NCBI GenBank assembly: GCA_017541325.1
Contig: JAFXZI010000014.1
Location: 45,741 to 109,740 of the forward strand
Length of the DNA: 64,000 nt
Reading direction: 5' to 3'
From: Bacilli bacterium
GTDB lineage: Bacteria > Bacillota_I > Bacilli_A > RF39 > UBA660
The stretch's first letter is position 1, and each line of letters opens with the position of its first letter. Under the pieces are notes generated by a model that did not search any database, was not told the origin of the DNA, and was given only the letters and a program-made list of their open reading frames with translations. Position numbers and translations under genes: made by a program. Below, in pieces: positions 1,390-62,536 of this stretch.

Positions 1390-2763
1390 TTAGAAGTTTA
1401 CTTTTTCCTTTACATAGTCTATTACTTCATCTATAGAAAGAGTTATTTGTTCCATTGTATCTCTATCTCTAACTGTTACAGTACCATTATTTAAAGTATT
1501 ATCATCTATAGTTACTGCAAAAGGAGTACCAACTATATCTGATCTATGATATCTTTTACCAATGTTTCCAGCTTCATCATAATCACACATAAAATGTTTA
1601 GATAGTTTTTCATATATCTCTTTAGCTTTTTCAGAATGATATTTTTTAATTAAAGGAAGAACTGTTACTTTATATGGTGCAAGGAATGGATGAAATTTCA
1701 TATATTCTCTTGTTCCTTCTTCTGTTTCTTCTTCAGTATAACTATTAAATAGTAAAGCAAGACAAGTTCTATCAAGTCCATAAGTAGATTCAATAATAAA
1801 TGGAATAAACTTCTCATTAGTTTCAGGATCTAAATATTCTTGAGATATACCACTATACTCTTGATGTCTAGATAAATCAAAGTTAGTACGATTATGAGTA
1901 CCATTTACTTCACCCCATCCAAATGGAAACTTATATTCTATATCACATGCACTTTTTGCATAATGAGCTAGTTTTTCATGATCATGAAATCTCAAATCTT
2001 CTTCTGGAATACCTAAATCCATATAGAACTTTTTACCATATTCTTTAAAGAAATCATATAATTTCATATCTTCTCCTTCTTTACAGAAAGTTTGATATTC
2101 CATTTGTTCAAATTCTATAGTTCTAAAAGTAAAGTTTCCTGGAGTTATTTCATTTCTAAATGCTTTACCAATTTGTCCAATACTAAATGGTAGTTTAGTT
2201 CTCATACTACGAAGTACATTTAAGAAATTAACATATTCTCCTTGAGCATTTTCTGGTCTTAAATAAACAACTGATTTAGAATCTTGTACAACTCCTCTAT
2301 GAGTTTCAAACATTAACTTAAATTGTCTTATATCAGTAAAATCACTTTTACCACATACAGGACATGGTACTTTATTATCTTTTATATATTTTTGTGCTTC
2401 TTCATTAGTTAATTTATCTCCTAGACTACTATTAGTATAATCATTTAATAGATTATCTACTCTAAATCTATTTTTACAATGCTTACAATCCATTAATGGA
2501 TCAGCAAAAGAATCAACATGTCCGCTAGCTTCCCATACTCTAGGATGCATTAATATATCTGCATCAAGTTCATATGCATTAGGTCTTTCTTGAATAAATC
2601 TTTTTCTCCAAGCATCTTTAATATTATTTTTAAATCTACTACCTAAAGGACCATAATCCCAAGTATTGGCAAGTCCTCCATAGATTTCACTACCTTGAAA
2701 AATGAATCCATATTGTTTACAAAAATTAACCATTTTTTCCATATTCATATTATTACTACTCAT
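1390..2763 (-). CDS. glyQS: glycine--tRNA ligase, single-chain (alpha2) type
   Basis: 457 aa. N-terminus FIFQGSEIYGGLANTWDYGPLG and class II aaRS core. AGGAGG RBS, preceded by a T-box leader. Confidence 0.95.
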   Translation of the reverse strand: MSSNNMNMEKMVNFCKQYGFIFQGSEIYGGLANTWDYGPLGSRFKNNIKDAWRKRFIQERPNAYELDADILMHPRVWEASGHVDSFADPLMDCKHCKNRFRVDNLLNDYTNSSLGDKLTNEEAQKYIKDNKVPCPVCGKSDFTDIRQFKLMFETHRGVVQDSKSVVYLRPENAQGEYVNFLNVLRSMRTKLPFSIGQIGKAFRNEITPGNFTFRTIEFEQMEYQTFCKEGEDMKLYDFFKEYGKKFYMDLGIPEEDLRFHDHEKLAHYAKSACDIEYKFPFGWGEVNGTHNRTNFDLSRHQEYSGISQEYLDPETNEKFIPFIIESTYGLDRTCLALLFNSYTEEETEEGTREYMKFHPFLAPYKVTVLPLIKKYHSEKAKEIYEKLSKHFMCDYDEAGNIGKRYHRSDIVGTPFAVTIDDNTLNNGTVTVRDRDTMEQITLSIDEVIDYVKEKVNF

Positions 2764-2895
2764 AATATCCTCCTAAAAACAAAAACTTCTAGAATTTGTA
2801 AGGACGATTTATCGCGGTTCCACCTTACTTATTCTAGAAGAATCTCTCTTTGTATATAGCTCTGGGATTCCACCCCGTCATCGCTTCAATAACTA
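2764..2895 (-). promoter_or_regulatory. T-box leader (Gly), unusually compact
   Basis: Minus-strand RNA carries the T-box motif AAGGUGGAACCGCG (plus 2813-2826). The canonical antiterminator is GUAAGG / 7-nt bulge UGGAACC / CCUUAC. UGGA matches the U73 discriminator of tRNA-Gly. A 10-bp perfect inverted repeat (2831-2840 / 2786-2795) is followed by a U-run (2775-2785), then AGGAGG. GCGAUGA (GA/K-turn-like) lies near the 5' end. Confidence 0.7.
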
Positions 2896-2928
2896 AAGTT
2901 TAATACTTTTTTTTATTTTTGTAAAGAA

Positions 2929-4983
2929 TTAGTGATCAACTACTTCGATATTACCGGCTTGATGTTCAATTGTTCCTGTTTTAAATTTTTGATTTGCAAT
3001 TTGAGCACCTGTAAATGAAGTCCAGTTCCACTCTTTTCCAGTATTATTAATGATTTTAACTAAATAAGGGTCATTTGTTGCTGTTTTTGCAAAAATACCA
3101 TTATTCATACTAGTAACATATTTTGGAATAGATACAGTACCATATGTTCTCCAAGTATATGTACCTGATAATTTAGTTATTTTAGTCCCGTCAGGGGCAG
3201 TTTCTGGAATTACAAGAGTTCCTGTTGTTCCTGGATTAGGTCCAACGAAATCTGATATTTCATTGTATAAAATAGTACCATTTGTAACTTTAAACATAAA
3301 TCCGTTATGAATATATTCACTATTATTTGTAATAACGTTATGATAAAAAGTATTAGTATCAATTGTTAAATTTGGTACATCTGATATAGGAGGCAAGTTT
3401 AATGTTTTAATATTACAACTTAAGAATGCTGCTCCTGAAATTTTTGTTAATGTTACCCCTTCTTTTTTTGCTGGTATAGTTAAAGCATAATTAGCAACTC
3501 TTCCTCCACCATAACTAACAATAGTTGTATAATCCCATTTTCCCTTTCCAGGATTATCTGGATCGGCTATTCTTTTATAGAAAATACCATCTATTCCATC
3601 CATTTTATTTTGAACAAATGCTCCTCCTCCAATTGATGTAACAGTATCAGGAATATCAATAGATGATAATTGATTTCCTCTAAATGCAGTTGAACCAATT
3701 GTTTTTAAATTTGCAGGTAATTTAACACTTGTTAAACTATTACTATAAAAAGCAGAACTATTAATTGTTTCTACTGAATCTGGAATAGTAACAGATCCTT
3801 TTAATCCAGCACTTTGGAAAGCACTACTATCTATAGTTTTTAATTGATATCCGTTTTTCCATTCAGGAATTACTATATTTTCTCTTGTTTCTCCACCATA
3901 ACCTACAATTGTAGTAAAGTCTTTTGATCCATTAGACTTTGTTTTATAAATAAATGCATTAGCATCAGTAAAATTATTGTTTGAGAATGCTGCTCCACCG
4001 ATTGTTGCATTACTATTTATATCGATATCTGATAAACAGTTACCTTGGAACGCATATGATCCAATACTCTTTAATGAAGCCGGAAGAGTTACATTACAAA
4101 TCTTATTACTTGCAAATCCATATGAACCTATTTTTTCTAGTCCTTCAGGAAGAATTAATTGTTGAATTTTTGAATTATAAAAACCAAAATCTTCAATTGT
4201 TTTAACTGACTTAGATAGTTTTACGCTTTTTAAATTATTTCCTTGGAATGCTGCATATCCAATTGTAACAATTCCATCATATGAACGAACACTTGTTATT
4301 CCTTTACCTTTAAACGCCCTATTTCCTATTCGTGTTACTTTTAAATTACCTATTTTAGAAGGTATATCAACATCTAATCCACAACTAGTATTATAGTTAG
4401 TTATTGTTATTGTCTCATCTTCATTTTCTTCCCACTCATAACAATCTTGTCCTTGTTCTAAGGTTATATTTACTGTAGGTTCTGTTTTTTCTTTATTTCC
4501 TTCTTCATCGACAATAACTATATTATCTCTTCCACCTATTGGGAAAGAATTATTAATAGTTTTATCATCAGTTACATAAATTTTACCAATTGATAAATCT
4601 TTTTCTGCAGTTAAATCAATCTTATGTCCTGTTTCATCTACACTTACCCAGTAATATTTAAATTCTTTTTTATTATTAATTACTACTACTACATAAGCCT
4701 CAACCCATTTTCCATAAGGACTATCTTTAACAGCACCATTATCTGTTTCTAGATTCTCTATATTATAATAATATGTAGTATTAGTATCTCTTGCTATTAA
4801 ATCATTTTTAGAAAGCATATTTGCACATATTTGAATGTACTCTCTAGCAGTATTAATATATAGTTTTCTTTTACTCTTGTCTATATAGTTTGATATTCCA
4901 AGAATTGCAATCATTCCCATTATACCTAATAATACAACTACTGCAATTATTTCTATTAAAGTAAATCCTTTTTGATTTTTCAT
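2929..4983 (-). CDS. type IV pilin-like protein fused to a large BspA-type leucine-rich-repeat domain (modular pilin/adhesin)
   Basis: ATG 4983 has AGGTGA 5 nt upstream; the ORF-track start 4992 is an in-frame GTG. N-terminus MKNQKG|FTLIEIIAVVVLLGIMGMIAIL is a class III prepilin signal (Gly-1, Glu+5). About a dozen degenerate ~23-aa repeats of the form IPxSVxxIGxxAFxxNxLxSVxL follow. Confidence 0.8.
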   Translation of the reverse strand: MKNQKGFTLIEIIAVVVLLGIMGMIAILGISNYIDKSKRKLYINTAREYIQICANMLSKNDLIARDTNTTYYYNIENLETDNGAVKDSPYGKWVEAYVVVVINNKKEFKYYWVSVDETGHKIDLTAEKDLSIGKIYVTDDKTINNSFPIGGRDNIVIVDEEGNKEKTEPTVNITLEQGQDCYEWEENEDETITITNYNTSCGLDVDIPSKIGNLKVTRIGNRAFKGKGITSVRSYDGIVTIGYAAFQGNNLKSVKLSKSVKTIEDFGFYNSKIQQLILPEGLEKIGSYGFASNKICNVTLPASLKSIGSYAFQGNCLSDIDINSNATIGGAAFSNNNFTDANAFIYKTKSNGSKDFTTIVGYGGETRENIVIPEWKNGYQLKTIDSSAFQSAGLKGSVTIPDSVETINSSAFYSNSLTSVKLPANLKTIGSTAFRGNQLSSIDIPDTVTSIGGGAFVQNKMDGIDGIFYKRIADPDNPGKGKWDYTTIVSYGGGRVANYALTIPAKKEGVTLTKISGAAFLSCNIKTLNLPPISDVPNLTIDTNTFYHNVITNNSEYIHNGFMFKVTNGTILYNEISDFVGPNPGTTGTLVIPETAPDGTKITKLSGTYTWRTYGTVSIPKYVTSMNNGIFAKTATNDPYLVKIINNTGKEWNWTSFTGAQIANQKFKTGTIEHQAGNIEVVDH

Positions 4984-5018
4984 AATATTCACCTACTTTA
5001 ATAATAACATTTTGTATA

Positions 5019-5049
5019 GTAAAAAAGAGATATTTTTATTGTCTCTTTT
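5019..5049 (-). terminator. rho-independent terminator after the YitT-family gene
   Basis: Stem aaagagata/tgtctcttt (5024-5032/5040-5048) with a T-run on the minus strand. Confidence 0.6.
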
Positions 5050-5073
5050 ATCTATTTTACTTAAAAATGTAAA

Positions 5074-5961
5074 TTATTTAGTTATTTTTCTCTTTTTCTT
5101 TAAAGTATTCTTAGCTTTTGTAGATTTAATATGATTTCCAATAATCTCAGATATATCAGAAACAGTTACAAATGCACTATTATCTTCATCATTTATAATT
5201 CGTCTAAGTTCTGGAAGTTCTAGTCTTGTTAAAACTACATAAATAATATCTTTTTTACCACTTATTAATCCAGAACCTTTCATAATAGTACAAGTTCTTC
5301 CAAGTCTTTCATAGATTAGATTAGATATTTTATCAGAATGATCTGTAATTATCATTATTTCTTTAGCTTGAGTTAATCCTTCACTTACAAAGTCTATTAC
5401 TTTAAAAGTAATTACATATGTAAGAAGTGAATATAAAGCTCTATCTATCCCAAAAATAAATCCAGCAGTTCCAAATATAATCATATTAAATAGTAATACT
5501 ATTTGCCCTACTGAAAAAGAAGTATTTTTACTAATTACAATAGCAACTGATTCAGTACCATCTACACATCCACCAGAACGAATTACAAGTCCAACACCAA
5601 TTCCAAGTAAAGCTCCTCCATAAACAAGTCCTAAAAGAGGATCTCCTGTAAGAGCTGGACTAGATGCGAACATTTCAAGTAGTAGTGAAAATAAAGCAAT
5701 ACTATATAATGCTTTTAATAAGAATTGTTTTCCTAAATTTTTATATCCAACATAAATAAATGGAATATTAATAAGAAATACAAGTAAACCTAAATTAATT
5801 TTAGATAGTTTATGAATAATGATAGAAATACCAGCTACTCCTCCATCTAAAATAGAATTAGGTATTAAGAACTCTTGTAGAGCAAAAGCTGCTAATAAAG
5901 AACCTAAAGTCATTCCTAAAAAATCGATAAATAGTTTTATTTCTTTACTTTTGTATTTCAT
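5074..5961 (-). CDS. YitT-family membrane protein (DUF2179-type C-terminal domain)
   Basis: 295 aa. Multiple TM helices followed by a soluble C-terminal domain (MIITDHSDKISNLIYERLGRTCTIMKGSG...). AGGTGA RBS. Confidence 0.75.
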   Translation of the reverse strand: MKYKSKEIKLFIDFLGMTLGSLLAAFALQEFLIPNSILDGGVAGISIIIHKLSKINLGLLVFLINIPFIYVGYKNLGKQFLLKALYSIALFSLLLEMFASSPALTGDPLLGLVYGGALLGIGVGLVIRSGGCVDGTESVAIVISKNTSFSVGQIVLLFNMIIFGTAGFIFGIDRALYSLLTYVITFKVIDFVSEGLTQAKEIMIITDHSDKISNLIYERLGRTCTIMKGSGLISGKKDIIYVVLTRLELPELRRIINDEDNSAFVTVSDISEIIGNHIKSTKAKNTLKKKRKITK

Positions 5962-12764: not shown

Positions 12765-13460
12765 TTAACTTAGTTTTAAATATTCTATTATTACCGGTGT
12801 AAGAATTAGTAATAATATTAATGGTATATAAAATAATACCGATATAACAGAAACCTTTACAGGTATCTTGTTAATGATTGCTTTTATTTTTAATACTTGT
12901 CTTTCTCTTATATAATCAATTTGAGTATATATATCTTCAATAATATCATTACCTAAAGTATTAGATTCAGATATATGAAGAATAATACTATTTACTTCAT
13001 CTGATGGAATTCTCTCTCTTAATGAATCAAGTGCTTCGTTAAGACCTTTTCCATATTTCATTTCTTCTAAAGTAATTTTAAATTCATTAGATAAATCATT
13101 ATCTACATTTATAGTTGCAACTTCTATAGAATCAACTATGCTTTTTCCTGATTCTAAGGAAAGTGCCATTACTTCAAAGAATTCCATAGCATTATACTCT
13201 AAATTATCTTTTCTTTTATTTATTGGAATCTCAATTAAATAATAAGTAATTAATTTAAAATAAATAAAAGTAATAATCGGACTAAGTAAATATCCCCAAT
13301 CAAGCATATATAATAACATGAAAAATATAATTAGAGAAGAAAAAGTTCTAAAGTTAAGAAAGAATATACTACTCATATTACTTTTTCCCATTTTTAATTT
13401 CTTTTCAAATTCTTCTATTTTTTTTCGAGGATAAATATAATACCAAAATTTATTTTTCAT
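12765..13460 (-). CDS. tadC: Tad/type II secretion F-family inner-membrane platform protein (TadC-like)
   Basis: 231 aa. T2SSF-type soluble domain (FFEVMALSLESGKSIVDSIE...LNEALDSLRERIP) flanked by TM helices. 4-nt overlap with the upstream gene. Confidence 0.75.
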   Translation of the reverse strand: MKNKFWYYIYPRKKIEEFEKKLKMGKSNMSSIFFLNFRTFSSLIIFFMLLYMLDWGYLLSPIITFIYFKLITYYLIEIPINKRKDNLEYNAMEFFEVMALSLESGKSIVDSIEVATINVDNDLSNEFKITLEEMKYGKGLNEALDSLRERIPSDEVNSIILHISESNTLGNDIIEDIYTQIDYIRERQVLKIKAIINKIPVKVSVISVLFYIPLILLLILTPVIIEYLKLS

Positions 13461-14446
13461 AATTTCACCTCGATGTATACTATTTTTCTAATTATTATTA
13501 TATAGAATACATATAACATTATTATTAACACAAATGCTAAAAATCCTATGGTTGTAGTAAATAAAGTTACAAAGTATGCTGGATTAAGTAATAATAAGAA
13601 TAAAACTAATATCGGTGGCATTGAAACTAAAATACGATAAACGAATCTAGCTTGAGAAGAATTACTTTTAAGTTCTTCTCTTAATTTTTTTCGTGCTAAT
13701 GCATTTTTTTCAATAGAATCAAATACAGATACAATGTTTCCACCAGTTTTACTTAATACACTAATTGAACTAGTTAAGTATGTAGCTTCAACACTTTTTA
13801 CTCTTTTACTAAATCTTTTAAAAGCTTCTTCTATATCTAATCCAAATTTAATATCTTCACTTATACGTTTAAACTCTATAGATATAGGTCCTTGCATCTC
13901 TTTAGCAACTAAGTCTATAGCTTGAATAATACTTTTTCCTGATTTAAAAGCATTATTCATTATTACTATTGCTTCTGAGATATCATTATCTAGTCTATTA
14001 TCTTCATATTTTCCAAGTACATATAAATAAATATCATATAAGAAGAATCCTGCTAAGAAAGATATTAGAATATTTACGATAGTTAGAACATTTTCTTTAG
14101 CAAATGAATTACATATAAGTAATAATAAACATAATAATCCTATAAATATTTTTCTACTAATGTAATTCATATTTGTAAGAAGTTTTTTACTACCTGAATA
14201 CTTTATATATTTTTTACTATAATCATCAAATACATGAGTTTTTATTAGTCTCCTAGATAGTTTTTCTTCTATATTTCTATAACTACTTACTAAAACATCA
14301 ACAATAGAAAGAGTATCATTATCATAATCTACAGTATAATTATTAAATCTTTTAGTTAATTTATAACTGTTATATGATTTTATAAATAACCATACCAATA
14401 ATAGAATTAAACATATTAACAATAATACTAATAAATATAATTCCAT
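13457..14446 (-). CDS. tadB: Tad/type II secretion F-family inner-membrane platform protein (TadB-like)
   Basis: 329 aa. T2SSF domain (MNNAFKSGKSIIQAIDLVAKEMQGPISIEFKRISEDIKFGLDIEEAF) with N- and C-terminal TM helices. Confidence 0.75.
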   Translation of the reverse strand: MELYLLVLLLICLILLLVWLFIKSYNSYKLTKRFNNYTVDYDNDTLSIVDVLVSSYRNIEEKLSRRLIKTHVFDDYSKKYIKYSGSKKLLTNMNYISRKIFIGLLCLLLLICNSFAKENVLTIVNILISFLAGFFLYDIYLYVLGKYEDNRLDNDISEAIVIMNNAFKSGKSIIQAIDLVAKEMQGPISIEFKRISEDIKFGLDIEEAFKRFSKRVKSVEATYLTSSISVLSKTGGNIVSVFDSIEKNALARKKLREELKSNSSQARFVYRILVSMPPILVLFLLLLNPAYFVTLFTTTIGFLAFVLIIMLYVFYIIIIRKIVYIEVKL

Positions 14447-14459
14447 ATTTTACTCCTTT

Positions 14460-15812
14460 CTATTTTTTCTTAGTTGTAGTCTTTTTAGTAATTTTATTTT
14501 TTGCTTTAGATTCAAACATATCTAAAACAATTCCTTTATTTTTAATTTTTTCATATATTTTTGGTACATTTTCATAAAGAATAAATTCTCCGTTTACTTC
14601 TTTATTTTCAGTTATACCATGCTTTAAGAATGCAAATATATCTTCAATAATAATATTTTCTCCATCAAATCCAGTTATTTCTGAAATATTAGTAACTTTT
14701 CTTTTACCATCACTTAATCTTTCAACCGATATTACTATATCAATAGCACTATCTATATACCCTCTAATAGCTTTAATAGGCAATTCTACTTCGCTCATAA
14801 GAATCATTGTTTCAAGTCTATTTAATGCATCTTTTACTCCGTTAGCATGTAGAGTGGTTAATGATCCATCATGACCTGTATTCATCGCTTGTAGCATATC
14901 AAACGCTTCTTTACCACGAACTTCACCAACTATTATTCTATCAGGACGCATACGAAGAGAGTTTCTTACTAAATCTCTTATTGTTATTTCTCCTTCTTTT
15001 TCATAGTTTTCAGTTTTAGTCTCAAGTGAAATAACATGTTCTTGTTTAAGACGAAGTTCAACTGCATCTTCAATAGTAATTATTCTCTCATCATTAGGAA
15101 TAGATCCTGAAAGAACATTTAAAAGTGTTGTTTTACCAGAACCAGTTCCTCCACATATTAAGATATTTAATCTTGCTTTAATACAAGCATCTAAGAAAGT
15201 AGCCATATATGGAGTTAATGTACCATTTCCTATTAAACTATCCATATCTTCAACATCATCTCTAAATTTACGAATAGTTACAACTGGCCCCTTTACTGAT
15301 AATGGTGGAATAATAGCATTTATTCTAGATCCATCAGGAAGACGAGAATCTACCATTGGGTTACTACTATCAATAGTTCTACCTAGTGGTTGAATGATAC
15401 GACTTACTGTTCTTATTATATGTTCATCATTAATAAATGAAACATCATAATCACGAGATATTATACCATCTACTTCAATATATATTTCATCAGGAGAATT
15501 AATCATTATCTCTGTTACATTTTTATCTTTTAATAATTCTGTAATAGGTCCAAATCCATTTAATTCATTATTAATAAGATTTTTTAAATAGTCTCTTTGT
15601 TCATTTAAAAGATCATATTCAACTGCAATTCTATCTATTACTTCTTCTATATTTTCTTCTTCTATTTCATGAGAATCAATTAATTCTTGAATAATCTTAA
15701 TACGTAATTTATCAAGTTCTTCTTTATTCTCAAAAATATCATAATCAGTATTAGTATAAGTATTGGAACTATTATCTTCTAAATTGAACTCTTCCATCCA
15801 ACTATTATTCAT
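14460..15812 (-). CDS. tadA: CpaF/TadA-family secretion ATPase
   Basis: 450 aa. Walker [13 protein letters not shown], Walker [13 protein letters not shown], and His box [12 protein letters not shown]. Confidence 0.9.
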
Positions 15813-16563
15813 AATCTTCCTCCTCTACTAAACTACGTATATTATTACTAAATGTTTCATATTCTTTTTTAGCTTCACCAGTAAATATTTCATTAAAATT
15901 AATTATTTTTTCATCCATAACTAATTCATTATAATTATTTATAAATAATTTATTACTTATAGAATAATCTAATTTTTTAATTACTGTTTTTATATCATAA
16001 ATATCATAATTATCTTTAATATCTCGATATGATTTATTTAGTAGTACAACAACATTATCTACTTTCATATTTTTAGTTATAGAAATGAAACTCTTATTAA
16101 TTTCTAAATTATAAGCATCATCTCCAACTATATCTATAATCTTCATACTTTTATCAAAAAGAAGCATATTAAGTGGGCTTAAAGTATTATTTGTATCAAT
16201 TACTATATATTCATATGAATACATTAATAAATCTAAAACTTGAGACAATGCTTTTACATCTATTTTAGATGATAATCTCATATCTATAGGAGCAGGAATA
16301 AAAGATAAGTTATCTCTTACATAATAAGTATATGGAGTAGAACTTTCATATTTTTTATTTCTTAAATCATCACACATATTATAAATAGTCTTTTTAGGTT
16401 TAATACCTAGTGCAAAAGCAAGATTTCCTCCATATAAATCTAAATCTATTAAAAGAGTACTTTTATTTTTACTTAAAATATCTGCAATCATCATTGAAAC
16501 AGTAGTTTTACCTACTCCACCTTTCATAGATGTTACAGTTATTATCTTAGCTTTATTCTTCAT
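15805..16563 (-). CDS. ParA/MinD-type ATPase (CpaE/TadZ-like pilus localisation protein)
   Basis: 252 aa. Deviant Walker A SMKGGVGKTTVS. 8-nt overlap with the ATPase gene. Confidence 0.75.
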   Translation of the reverse strand: MKNKAKIITVTSMKGGVGKTTVSMMIADILSKNKSTLLIDLDLYGGNLAFALGIKPKKTIYNMCDDLRNKKYESSTPYTYYVRDNLSFIPAPIDMRLSSKIDVKALSQVLDLLMYSYEYIVIDTNNTLSPLNMLLFDKSMKIIDIVGDDAYNLEINKSFISITKNMKVDNVVVLLNKSYRDIKDNYDIYDIKTVIKKLDYSISNKLFINNYNELVMDEKIINFNEIFTGEAKKEYETFSNNIRSLVEEEDYE

Positions 16564-17341
16564 CTAACCAACTCCTATTTTTATTATAATTATTTATTAT
16601 ATTATTTTCTGTTAATAACATATCATATGATTTTACATATTTAATATTCTTAGTATTAATAATTAAATCTCCACTTAAATTATCTATTTCTTTTATAAAG
16701 TCTCCATTTAAATATAGACGTGCTTTGTTAGTACCAACTAAATCTATAATATTTCTTTCATTAACTGGACCAATTAAAATATCATTTAAATACAGACTAT
16801 TATTACTTATAAAGAACCTACTATTACCAATCATAAATTGAGTATCATCTAAATTAGTAAAACCAATTTCTAAAGAATAATTTTCTAAATCAAAATTCTT
16901 TATATTAATTACACCATTAATTATGTTGTAGCCTCTACCATCTAAACTATTTACTTCATTATTATTTATTTCAAAATACATTAAAATATTACTTGTATAT
17001 TTTACTTCTTTTTCTGATGTAACAGTATATTTATCCATACCTATAATTTTTCCAAATATAGGTTTTATATCTTTATGCGTTTTTATATAAATAGATCTGT
17101 TTTCTATTTTTACTTCATCTATAACGATATCTTCATCATTTAAACTATATAATAATTTAATATCTTCATTAGAAACATCAATCTTTTTATTTAAACTAGT
17201 TAAAATATCTTTATTAACGTTATCTAAATAATTTTTATTATAAAACATCAAAGATGAATCTATAATAAAAGCTAAAGCAAGTGTAATAATAGGTAGTAAA
17301 AGTAAGAATAATACCAGTACTTGTCCTTTATTATTCTTCAT
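16553..17341 (-). CDS. TadG/TadE-like pseudopilin-type protein
   Basis: 262 aa. N-terminus MKNNKGQVLVLFLLLLPIITLALAFIIDSSLMF resembles the Flp-pilus TadE/G-like N-terminal segment. Overlaps both neighbouring genes by 11 nt. Confidence 0.6.
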   Translation of the reverse strand: MKNNKGQVLVLFLLLLPIITLALAFIIDSSLMFYNKNYLDNVNKDILTSLNKKIDVSNEDIKLLYSLNDEDIVIDEVKIENRSIYIKTHKDIKPIFGKIIGMDKYTVTSEKEVKYTSNILMYFEINNNEVNSLDGRGYNIINGVINIKNFDLENYSLEIGFTNLDDTQFMIGNSRFFISNNSLYLNDILIGPVNERNIIDLVGTNKARLYLNGDFIKEIDNLSGDLIINTKNIKYVKSYDMLLTENNIINNYNKNRSWLDEE

Positions 17342-17684
17342 TATTAATAGTCCTTTCTACTTTAACACTATATGGATCTTTTATTATTCTATTAATTCCT
17401 GGAGTCATTAAATCAACATCTTTAGTAATAATAATTGTTGTAATAGAACCCTTATCAGTAATATCAACATTAATATTTTTGTATCCAATACTAGCTAGAT
17501 ATGACTCTATTTCATCATTATCACTATTCTTTTGATATAGTGAAATAACTTCATTACTAACTCCTTCTAATTTACTATTTTCAAGTATTATTCTTCCTAA
17601 ATCTAAAAATGAAAAGAGAAGTAATATTATTACTGGTAATATAAGAACAAATTCAATAAGTGCTTGACCCTTATTATTCTTCAT
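17331..17684 (-). CDS. TadE-like pseudopilin / candidate pilin subunit
   Basis: 117 aa. MKNNKG|QALIEFVLILPVIILL has Gly-1/Glu+5 and the TadE-type EFxLxxP motif. GGAAGGTG RBS. Confidence 0.7.
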   Translation of the reverse strand: MKNNKGQALIEFVLILPVIILLLFSFLDLGRIILENSKLEGVSNEVISLYQKNSDNDEIESYLASIGYKNINVDITDKGSITTIIITKDVDLMTPGINRIIKDPYSVKVERTINNEE

Positions 17685-24127: not shown

Positions 24128-25699
24128 TTATAAATTAAGTTCTTTAGTTGTCAACTCTTTAGTTGCTTCAAGTTCAGGATCAGGATCTGGTTCTACTGGC
24201 GGTTCACCATTTCTTCTTCTTTCCCTTCTTGGCTCTACGATTAATTGTTTTTCTTCTTTTTTCTTTTCTACTTTTTCTTCTATTATTTTATCTTCTTTAG
24301 GATTCTTTTCTTCTTTTTTTCTTTTTATCCATAATACAAGTATTACTATTAAAATAGCAAATATTAAGAATAATTCTAATAATAAGAAGAAACTAACTCT
24401 TTTATCTTTTTCAATAACGATTGTATATTTACTAGACTCTCCATCAATTCCTGTAATAGTTATCTCTATTTCATCCCCAACTTTTAAGTCTTTTATTAAT
24501 TCTTTATTATTATTAATATCAGGATTCATAGTAACTGTTACTTCATCTTCCGGACTTACTGTTGTGTAATAAATTTTTAAATCTTCAAATTTCAATCTAT
24601 TATAATTTATCTTATATTGATAATTATTTTTATCAAAACTTATATCATATCCTTTTATAGATAATGATTTTAACATCTTACTAATACTTTTATCTAGATT
24701 GTTAACTATTACTGTATATGTAGCTTTTTCTCCTTTTTCAGAAGTAACTATAATTTTAAATTCATTATCTCCAACAAGTAATTTTTGTGGACCAGTAACT
24801 TCTGCTTTAGCATTAGGATCATTTGTTATCGCTTCTATTTTAACAGTCTCTGCTTTATATTTCTTAATAGTATATTTATATTTATTGGATTTAAATTCTT
24901 CAAGAGCAGTACCATCTATTGTAATTCCTGATAAAGTTGCATCAGTACTTCTTGTATCTTCTCTAGTAATATTAAGAGTATATATTTGTTCAGTACCACT
25001 TTCAGATACAACATTTAATTTAATTGTATTATTTCCATATTCCAAATTAACTGTTCTAGGTCCTAAACCATTTTTAAATGATGCTTTAGAAGATGTAGTT
25101 GTTGCTTCTATCTTAGCATTTGCAATATCACCTGTAACACTAACATCATAAGTTAAATTTTCAGAATGAAATTTTTCTACACTCACACCATTTATTTTAA
25201 TACCAGATAAACTAGCATCACTTGATTTGATGCTGATGGTTTTAGTGATTTTAGTACCCAGTTGTGTCACATCTCCAGCAGCATTTGTTATTTGTGTTGT
25301 ATTAAATGTTAGATTTGCACTATTTGCAGTTGGTTTTGATGTTACTTTGAAAACTAGCCTTCCAACTTCATTAGAGCAATTACCGGTTTTACAATTAAAT
25401 ACTACATCTTTACCAGAAATCCCGGGTTCTGATTGATTTTCCCAATTCCCAGATTGTTTAATAGCTTTAAAAGTAAACACCTTAGAATCATAACTAATTT
25501 GGGTAGTAAATGTAGTACCAGTCGTTGCTTGTATCCCATTAACATAAATTATATATTCAAATTCTTCAGATGGAGATACTGCAGTCGGACCAGTTATATT
25601 AACTTGAGGTTGACTTTGTGCATAAGCAAAAATAGGCATAAAAAATGCTAATATGCTTACTAGAATCCCCTTTACTTTCATCTTTTTTATTCTATTCAT
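24128..25699 (-). CDS. cell-surface protein: signal peptide, Ig/cohesin-like domain, three cadherin-like beta-sandwich repeats, C-terminal TM anchor
   Basis: 523 aa. Signal peptide ends ...FMPIFAYA. Repeats begin DASLSGIKINGVSVEKF, DATLSGITIDGTALEEF and LKSLSIKGYDISFDKNNYQY. TM segment FFLLLELFLIFAILIVILVLWI is followed by a charged tail. Confidence 0.7.
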   Translation of the reverse strand: MNRIKKMKVKGILVSILAFFMPIFAYAQSQPQVNITGPTAVSPSEEFEYIIYVNGIQATTGTTFTTQISYDSKVFTFKAIKQSGNWENQSEPGISGKDVVFNCKTGNCSNEVGRLVFKVTSKPTANSANLTFNTTQITNAAGDVTQLGTKITKTISIKSSDASLSGIKINGVSVEKFHSENLTYDVSVTGDIANAKIEATTTSSKASFKNGLGPRTVNLEYGNNTIKLNVVSESGTEQIYTLNITREDTRSTDATLSGITIDGTALEEFKSNKYKYTIKKYKAETVKIEAITNDPNAKAEVTGPQKLLVGDNEFKIIVTSEKGEKATYTVIVNNLDKSISKMLKSLSIKGYDISFDKNNYQYKINYNRLKFEDLKIYYTTVSPEDEVTVTMNPDINNNKELIKDLKVGDEIEITITGIDGESSKYTIVIEKDKRVSFFLLLELFLIFAILIVILVLWIKRKKEEKNPKEDKIIEEKVEKKKEEKQLIVEPRRERRRNGEPPVEPDPDPELEATKELTTKELNL

Positions 25700-33796: not shown

Positions 33797-36700
33797 TTAA
33801 TAGTAAACAGTTGCTCCGTTACATGCTACATCTCCATAAGAAGCTGTACATGAGCTTGTTGGATAATATGTACCTGTTCCTGACCAACCATTCCATATTT
33901 TACATCCCCAAGCTGCACTATAACATGATTTTGCACATGTATCACATACAAACTCGGTTGTAGATTGATAATGACATGTACAGAATTGTTGTGAATCATC
34001 AGTACCTGTTCCTGTATCAGAACAAGAACATACGTGAGGACTACAGAACGCTCTACATCTTGCTTCAGCTCCTGTACCTCTAAAGGCATTGTCTATTGTT
34101 TTTCCAACACAGTTACAATCTTCTGTTCCACATACACTTGAACTTGGTCCACCCCAATTATGTTGATAACATGTATTCTTTTGATACATATATGCTGATG
34201 ATACAGATACAGTACAACTATTTGTTAGCCCTGCACCGTTTGTACATGTATATGTTTTATCAGATGTTTGATTAGTATTTGAGAAAGAAGCTGTTACAAC
34301 ACCACTTGTACCGTCTGCACATGTTGCTCCTGTTGTTACCCCATTTGAATGATATTGATGGGATTTACTTGGTGTACATGACGGAACAGATGCATCTCTC
34401 TTAAATTTTATTGAACATGTATTAGTGTTTCCAGCATTATCTTTTATATGTCCTGTATATGTTACACTTTTTGTATCAGTAGTATGTGATGCTGTTTTGC
34501 TTCCAGTTACTGAATCTATTCCATATGATGCTGTTCCACTTAAGTCATCTCCAGTATTACCTTTTCCACTTACAAAGCTAACACTTACATTTGATGTATA
34601 CCAATTATCATTTCCAACTGTTCCAGATGTAGTTAACTTACAATATGGTTTTGTTTTATCTAGTTTAAACCAAATCTCACATTTATTTGTTCTTCCTGCT
34701 TTATCCTTTATATATCCATAATATGTTATTCCTGATGTTGTTGTATTAGTAGATTGTGTTTTCTTTGTGCTTTTATTATAACTTGGCGTTGCTGATGTTG
34801 TTATATCCCATGATGCTTTATCACTCATTGAATTATCTTTTTTAACATCTTCATATTTTTTAAATGTTACATCTACATTTCCTTCTTTATACCAATTATT
34901 ATCTCCTTTAGTACCAGTAAGTTGTAATTCACATGTAGGATTTTGTGAATCTTTTTTAACTACACTACTACAATCTTTTAAGTTTCCAGCATTATCTCTT
35001 ACATATCCATACCATGTATGACTTGTTGTATCTTTTGTTTGAGTTCCTGTATCATTTCCATTATATTCTAATCCACTTGAATTTTTTAATCCATAGTTTC
35101 TTGTTCCTGATTTTGTATATTTATTTGCAATTTCAGCATTATCATCTTTTGTTAATTTAACTGGAACATTTTCCCAGAAATAATCATTTTCATGTCTTAC
35201 GACTCTATCACTACCAAATGTTATTGTACATTTTGGCTCTGTTTTATCTATATTTGTTATTTCTCTTGTTTCTGGTAAACTTTCATTTCCTGATGTATCT
35301 TTTACTTTCATTATTACTGTTGCAAGAGTTGGATAAGTATAACTATTATCTTTTTGCCATGGATTATTATCAAATTTGTAGTCTCCTCTTCCTGATACTG
35401 AGTCTGTTGCATTTATATATAATGTTACATCTCTATTTGTATAATATCCTACTGTATCATCTCTTGTTAATAATTCTATTCTTGTTACATTATTTAACTC
35501 TGTTGCACTTGCAAATGATATTTCTAAATTACTAAATGAAGTTGGAGTTGCAAAATAGTTTCTTGCCTTTGATGTTGATGTTGGAATTGTTACAGTTAAT
35601 GTTTTATTTTTTACTGTATCTTTTATTGTTGCAGTTCCACCCTTTCCTGATGCCATATATACATATACTCCATATATATTACCGTACTCACCAGTTATGC
35701 TCGTTAAACTAATTTTTGTTGATGTTTTAGAAGCAAGTAAATCAGCTTTATCTTTTTCTGTACCTACTCCATATACTACTGTTCCATAGTCTATTGATTT
35801 AATAACTGGAATTACTGGATCATATGGAATTTCTCTATAACATGTTCCTACATTTCCAGCATTATCTTTTACATATCCATATACTGTTGTTATACCATCT
35901 TGTACTTCATATTCTGTTTCTTTATTAAAGTCGTAATTACTTCTACTAACTCCCATTCCATATGTTGCAATTCCACTTGTATCTCTTTCATCTACTTTTA
36001 ATTTAACTACTGGTCTTGGACTTGCTTTATACCATCCATTTTCCCCCATAGTTCCTTCAACTTCTAATGTACATTTTGGTGGTGTTTTATCAATATAAAC
36101 ATCTACTGGACACGCATTTGTTTTTCCAGCATTATCGGCAATTGTTATTGTTCCAGTTTCTCCTTCTTCAGTGAACTTCTTTGTAAACGTATCTTGAACA
36201 CATCCTGTACAATTATCACTACATCCAATAGTTATAGTTCTATCTTTATTTGTCCACACTTTAGAATCTCCTTGTGCAACACCACAAAGAGGAGGTTCAT
36301 CATCCATTTCTTCAGTACAAACACGTTGTGGTGGAATTCTTTTACTTAAATCTTCACATTTTCCTGATTGATAATCTCCACAAACTAAACATACTTCATA
36401 TGATAAATTTGTTATGTTTGGTCCTTCATTTTTAACTAAAACGAAACTTTGGAAAGGATCACAATCTTTAGAATCATCTTTAGGATCTCTTAACTTATTT
36501 GAATATCCTGTAGATATTAATTCTGATAAAGTTACTTTTTTATACTTATCTACTCCAGGAATGCAAATAGTATCATTTTTTTCTACACATTCAGTCATTA
36601 GATTTTGTGCAGAAACCTTCATATCAGCTTCATACATTTTATAAGTATTATTTCTTGTATCAATTATGTACCTTGAAATAGCAGGGAATAATAAACCCAT

Positions 36701-36943
36701 TAATAAACCTAGCAATACTACTACTGCTAGCATTTCTATCAAAGTAAAACCAAAACCAATTGTACCATTCTTTTTTTCATGTTTCTTTGGAGTTTGGTCT
36801 TTTCTTTTTATATTTGTTTGTAAAACTTTAATATCTTTTTTAGGTTTTTTAGTAGTTTTTGCTTCATTAGTAACCTTTTTTGTAATCTTTTTATTGTTAA
36901 TACTACTACTTTGTCCCCTTTTTTTAGTTTTATTCTCACTCAT
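33797..36943 (-). CDS. giant modular type IV pilin-like protein (65-aa Lys-rich leader, pilin N-terminal helix, tandem Ig-like modules, Cys-rich C-terminus)
   Basis: 1048 aa. AGGTGA (36948-36953) lies 4 nt before the only in-frame ATG. The ...NGTIGFG|FTLIEMLAVVVLLGLLMGLLF prepilin motif starts at residue 66. Four to six ~95-aa modules each begin P-x-C and end [YH][VI][KR]D[NK]AG[NR]xxxC. The last ~125 residues contain 16 Cys. Confidence 0.8.
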   Translation of the reverse strand: MSENKTKKRGQSSSINNKKITKKVTNEAKTTKKPKKDIKVLQTNIKRKDQTPKKHEKKNGTIGFGFTLIEMLAVVVLLGLLMGLLFPAISRYIIDTRNNTYKMYEADMKVSAQNLMTECVEKNDTICIPGVDKYKKVTLSELISTGYSNKLRDPKDDSKDCDPFQSFVLVKNEGPNITNLSYEVCLVCGDYQSGKCEDLSKRIPPQRVCTEEMDDEPPLCGVAQGDSKVWTNKDRTITIGCSDNCTGCVQDTFTKKFTEEGETGTITIADNAGKTNACPVDVYIDKTPPKCTLEVEGTMGENGWYKASPRPVVKLKVDERDTSGIATYGMGVSRSNYDFNKETEYEVQDGITTVYGYVKDNAGNVGTCYREIPYDPVIPVIKSIDYGTVVYGVGTEKDKADLLASKTSTKISLTSITGEYGNIYGVYVYMASGKGGTATIKDTVKNKTLTVTIPTSTSKARNYFATPTSFSNLEISFASATELNNVTRIELLTRDDTVGYYTNRDVTLYINATDSVSGRGDYKFDNNPWQKDNSYTYPTLATVIMKVKDTSGNESLPETREITNIDKTEPKCTITFGSDRVVRHENDYFWENVPVKLTKDDNAEIANKYTKSGTRNYGLKNSSGLEYNGNDTGTQTKDTTSHTWYGYVRDNAGNLKDCSSVVKKDSQNPTCELQLTGTKGDNNWYKEGNVDVTFKKYEDVKKDNSMSDKASWDITTSATPSYNKSTKKTQSTNTTTSGITYYGYIKDKAGRTNKCEIWFKLDKTKPYCKLTTSGTVGNDNWYTSNVSVSFVSGKGNTGDDLSGTASYGIDSVTGSKTASHTTDTKSVTYTGHIKDNAGNTNTCSIKFKRDASVPSCTPSKSHQYHSNGVTTGATCADGTSGVVTASFSNTNQTSDKTYTCTNGAGLTNSCTVSVSSAYMYQKNTCYQHNWGGPSSSVCGTEDCNCVGKTIDNAFRGTGAEARCRAFCSPHVCSCSDTGTGTDDSQQFCTCHYQSTTEFVCDTCAKSCYSAAWGCKIWNGWSGTGTYYPTSSCTASYGDVACNGATVYY

Positions 36944-40234: not shown

Positions 40235-41554
40235 CTATTCACCTTCTACTATTTCTTCTTCTATTTCTAATTCATCAAATAATTCTTCTGATAGTTTTTC
40301 TTCAAAGTAATATAATATATAATCTACTCCAACTAAAGTTTCTTCTTTAGTTTTATTATCTTTTATTTTAATTTGATCATTCTTTAATTCTTCATCATTC
40401 AAGATAATAAAGAATCTACTATTTAGACGATCTGCTTGTTTAAATTGACTCTTTAGGCTTCTACCTAGATTTTCCATTTCTATTTTATAACCATTCATTC
40501 TTAAATATTGGCATAAAGTAACTGCATAATCTTTTTCTGTATCAGATACATACATAATATAAGCATCAAGTGCTTTATCAACAGGTAGTTCTACTTTTTC
40601 AAGATCTAACGCCATAATAAGTCTTCCCATACCTAAAGCAAATCCTATTCCTGGAGTTGATGGCCCATCTAATTGTTCTGCTAGTCCATTATATCTTCCC
40701 CCACCAGCTAAAACATTATTAGAACCAAATCCATCTACTTTAGCTTCTATCTCAAATACTGTATGGTTATAGTAATCAAGTCCTCTTACTATATTAGGAT
40801 TTACTTCATAATCTACTTCAAGAAGTGATAAATATTTTTTAACTGTTTCAAATCTTTCTTTACTCTCTTCATTTAAATAATCAATAGTTTTAGGAGCATT
40901 TTTTAATATTGGATTATCACAATCTACTTTACAATCAAGAATTCTTAAAGGATTCTTTTTAAATCTTTCTTGGCAGTCTTCACATAAAGTATCAATATGT
41001 GGACGAAAATACTCTACTAAAGCTTCTCTATAATTATTACGAGATTCATTATCACCTAAAGTATTAATATTAACTTTTACTTCTTGTAATCCTAATAATT
41101 TAAATAAATTAACTGGAATAGATATTACTTCAGCATCTATATATGGATCATCACACCCTAATACTTCTACACCAAATTGTGTAAGTTCTCTATCTCTTCC
41201 TGATTGAGGTCTTTCGTAACGATACATTGTACCATTATAGTAAATCTTAACTGGTTGAGCACCATCTCCATACATTTTGTTTTCAATATAACTTCTTACT
41301 ATTCCTGCAGTTCCTTCTGGACGTAGAGTCATATTACGTCCACCTCTATCTACAAAATCATATGTTTCTTTTGTAACTATATCAGTTGTATCTCCTACTC
41401 CTCTATGGAATAATTCACTAGATTCAAAAATTGGTGTACGCATGAAATCATAATTATATTCTTTCATTAAATCATCAATTACTTGATCAACATATTTAAA
41501 TTTTCTAGCTTGATCACCATATATATCATGGCATCCTTTTGGTTTAGTTATCAT
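40235..41554 (-). CDS. hisS: histidine--tRNA ligase
   Basis: 439 aa with KGCHDIYG, MYRYERPQSGRDRELTQFGVE and GGGRYNGL. Its stop abuts the aspS start. Confidence 0.95.
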   Translation of the reverse strand: MITKPKGCHDIYGDQARKFKYVDQVIDDLMKEYNYDFMRTPIFESSELFHRGVGDTTDIVTKETYDFVDRGGRNMTLRPEGTAGIVRSYIENKMYGDGAQPVKIYYNGTMYRYERPQSGRDRELTQFGVEVLGCDDPYIDAEVISIPVNLFKLLGLQEVKVNINTLGDNESRNNYREALVEYFRPHIDTLCEDCQERFKKNPLRILDCKVDCDNPILKNAPKTIDYLNEESKERFETVKKYLSLLEVDYEVNPNIVRGLDYYNHTVFEIEAKVDGFGSNNVLAGGGRYNGLAEQLDGPSTPGIGFALGMGRLIMALDLEKVELPVDKALDAYIMYVSDTEKDYAVTLCQYLRMNGYKIEMENLGRSLKSQFKQADRLNSRFFIILNDEELKNDQIKIKDNKTKEETLVGVDYILYYFEEKLSEELFDELEIEEEIVEGE

Positions 41555-41771
41555 AAATACCTCCTAAAAATGCAAAAAGATGATACCAGTATAAGGACGA
41601 ATCTCTCGTGGTACCACCTTAATTCATAACAATAGTTATCTCAAATATCTTAACGCGATATAACGTTCTATGTTTATATAAAGTGTCTTCAATACATATT
41701 AGCTTAAGTATTTTCACCAACCATACTTTCTCTAAAAGCAATTACATATTTACTCCTCTTTCATAGAAGTT
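41555..41771 (-). promoter_or_regulatory. T-box leader of the hisS-aspS operon
   Basis: Minus-strand RNA has the T-box AAUUAAGGUGGUACCACG (plus 41607-41620). A terminator stem GGUACCA/UGGUAUC with U-run precedes AGGAGG. The candidate specifier context UUGAAGACACUU (plus 41683-41687 = GACAC) overlaps GAC and CAC. Confidence 0.8.
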
Positions 41772-57609: not shown

Positions 57610-57641
57610 TATAAAAAAAGAAAAAGACTTTACAAGTCTTA
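57610..57641 (-). terminator. rho-independent terminator after the TPR gene (end of the MoxR/VWA operon)
   Basis: Stem aagact/agtctt (57624-57629/57635-57640) followed by a long T-rich run on the minus strand. Confidence 0.65.
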
Positions 57642-62516: not shown

Positions 62517-62536
62517 ATACACTTCACCTATTATAA

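What the first reader, a model, noticed from the sequence alone, without database searches (positions are those of the whole stretch)
2929..4983. Type IV pilin N-terminus fused to a ~450-residue BspA-type leucine-rich-repeat adhesin domain, read straight into the glyQS leader
Seen in the sequence:
- MKNQKG|FTLIEIIAVVVLLGIMGMIAIL is a canonical class III signal with a short 6-aa leader.
- A ~170-aa pilin-like globular region follows, then about a dozen IPxSVxxIGxxAFxxNxLxSVxL repeats (BspA-like LRR_5 type).
- No terminator separates this gene from the glyQS T-box leader 30 nt downstream.
- It is the second orphan modular pilin in the window and lies 30 kb from the first.

Inference: this is an LRR-tipped pilin or pseudopilin used for host or matrix binding. 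Two such genes, dispersed among housekeeping genes, imply a filament system whose subunit repertoire is scattered around the chromosome.
Basis: partly seen in the sequence, partly recalled or inferred. Interest (0 to 1): 0.5.

Follow-up and report, generated by a model that had tools for sequence, protein, structure and literature searches.

The report
Leucine-rich-repeat adhesin fused to pilin
An uncultured gut bacterium (class Bacilli) encodes a protein whose front end looks like a type IV pilus subunit and whose back end is a BspA-type leucine-rich-repeat binding domain; the design is already catalogued but uncharacterised, so this is a new member of a known kind.

Summary
Window 2929-4983 (minus strand) encodes a 684-aa protein with three parts:
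- a class III (prepilin) signal, MKNQKG|FTLIE;
- a predicted pilin-type head (residues 7-203);
- a 480-residue BspA/TpLRR-type solenoid.

It belongs to a family of about 90 or more sequence clusters in uncultured low-GC Bacilli. In 73 aligned members Phe+1 and Glu+5 are invariant and Gly-1 is present in 72.

The N_methyl + BspA-LRR architecture is already listed among the commonest "modular pilin" designs (Raynaud et al. 2021). It is therefore a new member of a known kind.

Most likely it is a minor, tip-displayed adhesin pilin. The assembly machine and the prepilin peptidase were not found. The only filament machinery in view is a Tad-type operon, which has its own Flp and TadE subunits.

Such pilin genes are dispersed, often in tandem copies, and never lay beside machinery in any context examined. 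Adjacency to glyQS is private to this lineage. No terminator follows the gene, but glyQS has its own promoter 3 nt after the stop codon.

By-product: the glyQS leader is a roughly 110-nt T-box with a hairpin-sized Stem I and no Stem II. It recurs, with covariation, in 37 distinct metagenomic leaders.

The parts
2929..4983 (-). Coding sequence of the 684-aa LRR modular pilin (stop codon TAA at 2931-2929)
   Evidence: ORF and translation. Pfam N_methyl and LRR_5. The identical protein occurs on 15 metagenome contigs.
4966..4983 (-). Leader peptide MKNQKG (residues 1-6), ending in Gly-1 of the class III signal
   Evidence: Among 73 family members, Gly-1 is present in 72, and Phe+1 and Glu+5 in all 73. 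TIGR02532 hit.
4375..4965 (-). Pilin module (residues 7-203): helix alpha1 (residues 9-58), 4-stranded antiparallel sheet (69-126), and a linker subdomain (131-203) with invariant Cys181 and Cys201
2932..4374 (-). BspA/TpLRR-type leucine-rich-repeat solenoid (residues 204-684): about 14-15 units in 4 blocks, with 3 beta-hairpin inserts
4989..5009 (-). Putative promoter of the pilin gene itself (extended -10 TGTTATTAT, 5009-5001) and Shine-Dalgarno AGGTGA (4994-4989)
   Evidence: Read from the sequence. The block is conserved in the 57%-identical relative L007. Inference only; there are no expression data.
5020..5047 (-). Terminator-like hairpin of the upstream yitT-like gene (AAGAGA, 11-nt loop, TCTCTT, then a T-run), which isolates the pilin gene transcriptionally
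   Evidence: Conserved in L007, where the stem is one pair longer (AAGAGAA/TTCTCTT). The consensus scan missed it because the stem is A+U-rich.
2897..2925 (-). glyQS promoter-like site TTTACA-17 nt-TAAACT, starting 3 nt after the pilin stop codon
   Evidence: Promoter scan. Conserved as TTTACA-17-TAAAAT in L007. Related leaders carry TTGACA-like and TATAAT-like boxes at the same place.
2775..2884 (-). Compact glyQS T-box leader. It comprises: K-turn GCGAUGA...AGAGC (2884-2859) around a GGG/CCC stem and a GUGGAAU loop; Stem III (2843-2831); T-box sequence GGUGGAACCGCG (2824-2813); terminator arm AUUCUAGAAG (2795-2786), which pairs with 2840-2831; and a U-run (2785-2775)
   Evidence: Rfam T-box, 41 bits, E 7.6e-8. 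Fold. 37 related leaders with covariation.
12765..17684 (-). Context only: Tad-type (type IVc) operon of TadE-like x2, a TadZ-like ATPase, TadA/CpaF, TadB and TadC. It is the only filament machinery visible near the gene
   Evidence: Pfam TadE, AAA_31, T2SSE and T2SSF x2. N-termini MKNNKG|QALIEF and MKNNKG|QVLVLF. The operon is conserved across the clade.
33797..36943 (-). Second prepilin-type giant protein (1048 aa from ATG 36943). The motif GFG|FTLIEMLAVVVLLG starts at residue 64, after a Lys-rich extension
   Evidence: Motif scan and translation. TIGR02532 scores 17.6 bits against a cut-off of 16.3. 946 representative homologues at E<1e-10, most with short leaders.

Best explanation
The gene encodes a modular type IV pilin, that is, a filament subunit carrying an adhesin.

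Proposed mechanism:
1. The protein is inserted into the membrane by its hydrophobic N-terminal helix.
2. A prepilin peptidase cuts after Gly6, leaving Phe as the new N-terminus.
3. The conserved helix, with Glu at position +5, lets the small pilin head join a type IV filament built from short prepilin-type pilins. The filament machine is encoded elsewhere in the genome.
4. The 480-residue leucine-rich-repeat solenoid is too bulky for the filament body. The subunit therefore most likely sits at the tip as a low-abundance (minor) pilin and binds a protein or glycan ligand in the gut.

Shown here: the signal motif and its conservation, the predicted fold, the LRR domain, the family, and the dispersed gene arrangement.

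Inferred: cleavage, polymerisation, tip location and ligand binding.
For: - Prepilin signal. The protein scores above the curated cut-offs of Pfam N_methyl and NCBIfam TIGR02532.
- Conservation of the signal. In 73 full-length relatives that are only 32-58% identical overall, Phe+1 and Glu+5 are invariant and Gly-1 is present in 72. From established knowledge of type IV pilins, a buried Glu5 is needed for filament assembly rather than for membrane anchoring.
- Where conservation is highest. The N-terminal half of the helix is the best conserved segment, at 58% mean pairwise identity against 31-49% elsewhere. Five tandem paralogues in one relative keep the helix at 88% identity while the LRR drops to 55-59%.
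- Sequence homology of the head. It is homologous to stand-alone pilins of 113-192 aa in the same clade. It also matches a Brevibacillus pilin next to PilD and an assembly ATPase.
- Precedent. Modular pilins are an established class, and in Streptococcus sanguinis PilB the grafted module is the adhesin (PMC8179133).
Against: - No A24 prepilin peptidase motif and no PilB/ComGA-type ATPase was found in the 64-kb window, in the roughly 10 kb examined beyond its low-coordinate end, or within 10 kb of any related pilin gene in uncultured Bacilli.
- The only machinery in view is Tad-type.
- There are no expression, processing or localisation data.
- No short major pilin gene was seen in the stretch of this genome I could read.
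Confidence: 0.6

Rival explanations
1. The protein is a membrane-anchored surface adhesin that is never polymerised. The pilin-like N-terminus serves only as a cleavable anchor and stalk that holds the LRR domain at the cell surface. It would substitute for sortase-type anchoring in a reduced-genome lineage.
For: - These genes are always orphans, far from any assembly genes.
- The clade carries many prepilin-type proteins of 110 to about 1400 aa.
- A published survey reports that the related orders RFN20 and ML615J-28 lack srtA/B sortases (PMC10868615).
Against: - Invariant Glu+5 and the very high conservation of the N-terminal half-helix are not needed for a simple anchor.
- Stand-alone pilins of major-pilin size, homologous to the head, exist in the same clade.
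- The window organism's order is not established. One relative that carries the Tad operon has a weak sortase hit.
Confidence: 0.2
2. The protein is incorporated into, or primes, the Tad (type IVc) pilus made by the operon 8 kb upstream, and is processed by the same peptidase as Flp and the TadE-like proteins.
For: - The Tad operon is the only filament machinery in view. It is highly conserved in the clade, with TadA 68-78% identical in more than 100 clusters.
- In this lineage the pilin gene lies between the operon and the flp gene.
- Leaders are alike: MKNQKG|F (target), MKNNKG|Q (TadE-like) and MRNNKKG|Q (Flp). The target, Flp and the 117-aa TadE-like protein all have Glu at +5; the 262-aa TadE-like protein has Leu there.
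- LRR-pilin relatives P0002 and P0006 and TadA relatives P0124 and P0130 list longest contigs of identical length (147,284 and 133,645 bp), which suggests they share contigs. For P0002 the linkage is seen directly on another contig.
Against: - The target matches N_methyl/TIGR02532, not the Flp_Fap or TadE families.
- The Tad system already has its own Flp pilin and two TadE-like pseudopilins.
- No Tad operon examined contains an N_methyl gene.
- More distant LRR pilins are not near Tad genes.
- I know of no precedent for such a hybrid.
Confidence: 0.1
3. The protein is an accessory subunit of the competence (Com) pseudopilus, which is common in Bacilli.
For: Com pilins carry the same N_methyl-type signal, and Com systems are common in Bacilli (general knowledge; PMC12153270 appeared in the search but I did not read it).
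Against: - No comG genes were seen.
- The head is most similar to pilus-type pilins, including one from a pil operon.
- Com minor pilins are small and lie inside comG operons (general knowledge).
- Tandem amplification of an LRR adhesin does not fit a DNA-uptake role.
Confidence: 0.08

Closest known systems
Modular type IV pilins, type example Streptococcus sanguinis PilB (vWA module) and PilC (lectin module) (PMC8179133, PMC9934059)
   Same: A short class III signal and a small pilin module, followed by a bulky, independently known binding domain grafted on the C-terminal side. Both occur in monoderm hosts. For PilB a tip location and an adhesin role have been proposed.
   Different: - The grafted module here is a 480-residue BspA-type LRR solenoid rather than a vWA or lectin domain.
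- The gene is an orphan rather than part of a pil locus.
- A 70-residue linker subdomain with two invariant cysteines joins the modules, instead of a short loop.
- Nothing has been tested experimentally.
InterPro architecture IPR012902-IPR026906 (prepilin N-terminal motif + BspA-type LRR) in Dataset S1 of Raynaud et al. 2021
   Same: This is the same two-signature architecture. The survey lists 18 proteins with one LRR signature and 6 with two, making it the seventh commonest architecture. [quoted passage not shown]
   Different: That survey only counted the architecture and classed the extra domain as having no clear function. It gave no family description, structure or genomic context. The present family (about 90 clusters in uncultured gut Bacilli, with tandem arrays) is much larger than those 24 entries.
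BspA/TpLRR-type surface LRR proteins (Treponema pallidum TpLRR 6mlx, pneumococcal PcpA 4cp6, gut Bacteroides and Eubacterium LRR proteins 4fs7 and 4h09; streptococcal HupY/LrrG)
   Different: Those proteins reach the surface by other routes, such as choline binding for PcpA (named 'choline binding protein') and, from general knowledge, lipid or cell-wall anchors or the type IX system. Here the LRR domain is carried by a pilin module. The HupY model scores 107 bits against a cut-off of 1250, so this protein is not an orthologue.
Large tip-located minor pilins CofB (ETEC type IVb pili) and GspK (type II secretion)
   Same: A pilin module carries extra domains, and the subunit is placed at the filament tip (as summarised in PMC8179133).
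   Different: Their extra domains are system-specific folds, and the genes lie inside the machinery operons.
Tad/Flp pilins and TadE/TadF pseudopilins (type IVc)
   Same: A short basic leader ending in Gly, with Glu at +5. Such genes lie 8-10 kb on either side of the target.
   Different: They belong to different families: Flp_Fap and TadE against N_methyl. Flp is about 56 residues when mature and has no globular head.

Membership tests
Type IV pilin (type IV filament subunit) | Class III signal peptide: a short basic leader ending in Gly, then a hydrophobic stretch of about 20 residues with Glu at +5 | tested here: met
   MKNQKG|FTLIEIIAVVVLLG. Pfam N_methyl scores 29.5 bits against 21.2. TIGR02532 scores 25.7 bits against 16.3. 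Gly-1 is present in 72 of 73 relatives, Phe+1 and Glu+5 in all 73.
Type IV pilin (type IV filament subunit) | Pilin fold: an N-terminal helix of about 50 residues packed against an antiparallel beta-sheet | tested here: met
Type IV pilin (type IV filament subunit) | Cleavage (and N-methylation) by an A24 prepilin peptidase | not testable with these tools
   No GxGDxK-type peptidase ORF was found in the window, in L092, or in any uncultured-Bacilli locus. The rest of the genome could not be read.
Type IV pilin (type IV filament subunit) | Polymerisation by an assembly ATPase plus platform protein, normally with a short major pilin | not testable with these tools
   Only a Tad-type ATPase and platform are in view. 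No PilB/ComGA-like ATPase lies within 10 kb of any related pilin gene. Candidate short pilins exist in related genomes.
Modular pilins (sensu Raynaud et al. 2021) | An N-terminal IPR012902 motif plus an additional domain that is not specific to type IV pilus biology | tested here: met
   N_methyl plus LRR_5. This architecture is listed in the paper's Dataset S1.
BspA-type LRR (Pfam LRR_5, PF13306) | Repeats of about 22-23 residues matching the LRR_5 profile and forming a TpLRR-like solenoid | tested here: met
Tad/Flp pilins and TadE/F pseudopilins | A match to Flp_Fap (PF04964) or TadE (PF07811), with the G|xxxxEY-type motif | tested here: not met
   The target has no such Pfam hit even at E up to 1. 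The neighbouring true TadE-like and Flp genes do match.
Com (competence) pseudopilins ComGC-GG | Small subunits encoded inside a comG operon with ComGA/ComGB | tested here: not met
   The protein is 684 aa. No comG-type ATPase or platform lies in the window or near any relative.
T-box leader (Rfam RF00230), for the element downstream | Reaches the Rfam gathering score, with a full Stem I (specifier loop plus distal platform) and an antiterminator/terminator | tested here: not met
   41.3 bits against a gathering score of 93, with 87 model positions absent. The discriminator is canonical, comprising a purine string, Stem III and the UGGAACC bulge. Stem I is reduced to a hairpin.

The most novel reading that the evidence does not exclude
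In this reduced-genome, possibly sortase-poor group of gut Bacilli, prepilin-type signals may be the general route for displaying large adhesins. The conserved Tad-type machine, the only filament system seen, would share one peptidase with these N_methyl-type modular pilins and assemble or prime them. The result would be hybrid Flp filaments tipped with LRR pilins. The evidence does not exclude this. Leaders are alike, the gene lies between the Tad operon and flp, and no PilB/PilC/PilD genes were seen. However, only a small part of any genome could be read.
Probability: 0.1. Interest if true: 0.65.

Novelty: new member of a known kind. Interest (0 to 1): 0.3.

Why it matters
If the reading is right, this family would be among the candidate adhesins of an abundant but uncultured group of animal- and human-gut Bacilli. 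The tandem, diverging LRR copies on a constant pilin stalk suggest a set of binding specificities presented on one filament.

It also gives the "modular pilin" concept a large natural family with a confident structure model. That makes the family a convenient test case for how a very bulky module is carried by a filament.

The value is incremental, because the architecture was already catalogued and nothing here shows function.

The by-product may matter more. A roughly 110-nt T-box lacking both the tRNA-elbow platform and Stem II would challenge the current view that one of those two is needed for tRNA binding.

Tried and rejected
- Rfam at gathering thresholds missed the glyQS leader. It appeared only at relaxed thresholds.
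- The consensus terminator scan found nothing in 2500-5400. By eye and by comparison with L007 there is an A+U-rich terminator upstream of the gene.
- The single genome-contig scan used only the N-terminal peptide pattern. It therefore returned mostly generic pilin N-termini and did not recover the window's own genome.
- A regular-expression search for the A24 peptidase motif, and tblastn with TadA, found peptidases and ATPases only in true Bacillus and Paenibacillus pil loci and one Clostridium locus. None was found in any uncultured-Bacilli locus.
- Walking the source scaffold beyond the window's high end failed, because the last gene product is not on record.
- Foldseek of the pilin module against the PDB gave no significant match.
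- Small genes upstream of the Tad operon in relative L094 were checked as possible N_methyl pilins. They are not: they carry a different N-terminal signal type.
- Two papers on related uncultured lineages contain no information on pili or competence. A paper on a pilin from the gut clade TANB77 was checked for prepilin-related terms and added nothing usable.
- A link between LRR pilins and aminoacyl-tRNA synthetase genes was considered, given glyQS here and pheST in L097. I rejected it as an effect of dense housekeeping genomes, because about 50 related glyQS loci have no such gene.
Full report
**What is there**

On the minus strand, 2929-4983 encodes a 684-aa protein that starts MKNQKGFTLIEIIAVVVLLG. 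It passes the curated cut-offs of three profiles:
- Pfam N_methyl, 29.5 bits against 21.2;
- NCBIfam TIGR02532, 25.7 bits against 16.3;
- Pfam LRR_5, 167.7 bits, E 1.3e-49.

The window has 26% G+C. The same protein occurs on 15 metagenome contigs, and the window maps to a 169.6-kb scaffold from one metagenome assembly. The window's Tad ATPase is identical to a protein that NCBI names "CpaF family protein [Bacilli bacterium]". The host is therefore an uncultured member of the Bacilli.

**Family**

A protein search returned about 90 clusters of 630-740-aa proteins with the same two Pfam domains. They are 30-57% identical over the full length. Where named, they are called "leucine-rich repeat protein [Bacilli bacterium]" or [quoted passage not shown].

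In an alignment of 73 full-length members:
- Phe+1 and Glu+5 are invariant, and Gly-1 is present in 72.
- Two cysteines at the junction of the modules (C181, C201) are invariant.
- The N-terminal half of the helix is the best conserved segment, at 58% mean pairwise identity. Other regions range from 31% to 49%.

**Structure**

With this alignment, AlphaFold gives a confident model (pLDDT 93.6, pTM 0.81). It contains:
- a helix at residues 9-58;
- a four-stranded sheet at 69-126;
- a small linker subdomain at 131-203;
- a solenoid from about residue 204 to the C-terminus, in four LRR blocks separated by three beta-hairpin inserts.

Sequence evidence is independent of this. Residues 6-120/165 align at 25-43% identity with stand-alone pilins of 113-192 aa in the same clade. 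They also align with a Brevibacillus pilin that lies beside a PilD-type peptidase and an assembly ATPase.

**Genomic setting**

Reading along the minus strand, the order is: a yitT-like gene, a conserved A+U-rich terminator hairpin (5047-5020), an extended -10 box (TGTTATTAT, 5009-5001), the ribosome-binding site AGGTGA, and then the pilin gene. The gene therefore appears to be its own transcription unit.

No terminator follows the gene. Three bases after its stop codon lies a promoter-like site, TTTACA-17-TAAACT. This site is conserved in a 57%-identical relative. glyQS therefore has its own promoter. Read-through from the pilin gene would meet the T-box terminator.

Eight kilobases upstream is a Tad-type operon: two TadE-like genes, a TadZ-like gene, TadA/CpaF, TadB and TadC. 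An Flp pilin gene lies about 10 kb downstream, just outside the window.

Their leaders resemble the target's:
- TadE-like proteins: MKNNKG|QALIEF and MKNNKG|QVLVLF;
- Flp: MRNNKKG|QALVEY;
- target: MKNQKG|FTLIE.

However, they belong to other families. The Tad operon is conserved across the clade without any N_methyl gene or peptidase inside it.

No A24 peptidase motif and no second assembly ATPase was found in the window, in the roughly 10 kb examined beyond its low-coordinate end, or near any related pilin gene.

**Comparative context**

The closest relative shares the window's gene order. More distant members lie in unrelated places:
- after uvrC;
- after an ABC transporter;
- before pheST;
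- as a tandem pair;
- as five tandem copies in a Hadza-gut MAG.

In those five copies the helix stays 88% identical while the LRR falls to 55-59%.

About 60 loci from low-GC uncultured Bacilli carry prepilin-type ORFs of 110 to about 1400 residues with leaders of 3-9 residues. They are often in tandem, and none had an ATPase or peptidase within 10 kb.

The link to glyQS is not general. About 50 related glyQS loci have no such gene.

**Interpretation**

The combination points to a subunit that is cleaved and polymerised rather than merely anchored. The relevant observations are an invariant Glu+5, a highly conserved assembly helix, a pilin-like head homologous to stand-alone pilins, and a diverging binding module. 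Its size points to a tip position.

This is the "modular pilin" design shown experimentally for Streptococcus sanguinis PilB (PMC8179133). That paper's survey already lists the architecture IPR012902-IPR026906, with 18 proteins plus 6 carrying two copies. IPR026906 is the BspA-type LRR region. A full-text search found no paper that pairs leucine-rich repeats with modular pilins.

I therefore rate the finding as a new member of a known kind, with cleavage, assembly, partner machine and ligand all untested.

Three rivals remain open: an unpolymerised membrane anchor, incorporation into the Tad pilus, and a Com-pilus accessory. The decisive test is a search of a complete genome for the peptidase and machinery.

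**Second prepilin-type protein**

The protein at 33797-36943 has the motif at residue 64, and TIGR02532 scores it just above the cut-off. It has 946 representative homologues at E<1e-10. Most align their residues 5-12 to the query's residues 64-65, meaning they have short leaders. A few share the Lys-rich extension.

**By-product: the glyQS leader**

Rfam scores the leader only 41 bits, with 87 model positions missing. Between the K-turn halves GCGAUGA and AGAGC there is only a 3-4-bp stem and a 7-nt loop, GUGGAAU. A linker of 34 nt follows, holding the purine string and Stem III. Then come a canonical T-box bulge and antiterminator, and a 10-bp helix that pairs the Stem III region with the bases just before the U-run.

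A pattern scan of metagenomes found 100 matches, of which:
- About 55 lie in contigs of 23-33% G+C. Every one with a recognisable downstream ORF precedes a GlyRS homologue.
- Four mid-G+C matches lie before AspRS homologues. Three of them carry CUGACA in the loop and the fourth UUGACG; GAC is an Asp codon.

Among the 37 distinct low-G+C leaders:
- The loop holds U-GGA-A (31), U-GGC-A (3) or U-GGG-A (3).
- The mini-stem covaries, with 19 distinct stems recorded by an automatic parse, a few of which are mis-parses. At least 31 of 37 form three or more pairs, against a mean of 10 after shuffling partners.
- The Stem III/terminator helix is at least 7 bp in 31 of 37, again with compensatory changes.

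Reviews state that truncated Stem I is known in actinobacterial ileS leaders, where Stem II then becomes essential (PMC7583486). A 2024 survey of glycyl T-boxes had no text matches for truncated or short Stem I variants. I did not test function, and my literature coverage is partial.

Noticed in passing
window 2775-2925 (minus strand); related leaders in L099-L184: The glyQS leader is a roughly 110-nt T-box. Stem I is only a K-turn plus a 3-4-bp stem and a 7-8-nt loop carrying U-GGA-A. There is no distal platform and no Stem II. The terminator helix pairs the Stem III region with the bases just before the U-run, enclosing the antiterminator. 37 distinct metagenomic leaders share the design, with covariation. 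Four analogous leaders with a GAC (Asp) codon in the loop precede AspRS genes. The T-box papers I consulted do not describe this design.
   Followed up: partly
window 33797-36943 (minus strand): A 1048-aa protein has its prepilin motif (GFG|FTLIEML) 66 residues from the only plausible ATG (Shine-Dalgarno GGTGA), behind a very Lys-rich extension. Most of its 946 representative homologues have leaders of 5-12 residues, and a few share the long extension. Either this is an unusually long leader or the start codon is non-canonical.
   Followed up: partly
window 12765-17684; L092:18481-18672; L094-L096: The Tad-type operon (TadE-like x2, TadZ, TadA, TadB, TadC, then yebC) is strongly conserved in this clade, with TadA 68-78% identical. 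In the window and in two of three relatives examined it sits beside the cell-wall genes ddl and a Mur ligase. Its Flp pilin gene lies about 25 kb away. No prepilin peptidase lies in or near the operon.
   Followed up: partly
L013:4537-15300 and L098:10001-14102: LRR pilins occur as five tandem paralogues in a Hadza-gut Bacilli MAG and as a tandem pair elsewhere. In the five-copy array the helix is near-identical while the LRR modules diverge. This pattern suggests diversification of binding specificity.
   Followed up: partly
L094:5969-8407 and 14018-15409: Next to the Tad operon of one relative lie four paralogous genes of about 170 aa and a 463-aa gene. All share a different N-terminal signal (…AVA(F/Y)AAF.T.L.(I/V)NGTA(S/T)I…). 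A type I signal peptidase, a weak sortase hit and a VWA protein lie nearby. Possibly this is another fibre system.
   Followed up: no
window 24128-25699: A 523-aa protein has three Cadherin-like beta-sandwich domains, so it may be another surface protein. Cadherin-like proteins also lie near pilin-type genes in relatives (L011, L095).
   Followed up: no
window 57639-62522: A gene run of MoxR-type AAA ATPase, DUF58, a 151-aa ORF with no Pfam hit, VWA x2 and a TPR protein, with a LemA gene just upstream.
   Followed up: no
window 41590-41770: A second T-box, of canonical length (96 bits, above the gathering score), precedes the 439-aa gene at 40235-41554 and the 577-aa gene after it. I used these two as HisRS and AspRS queries by size and position; I did not scan them against Pfam. 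It contrasts with the compact glyQS leader in the same genome.
   Followed up: no
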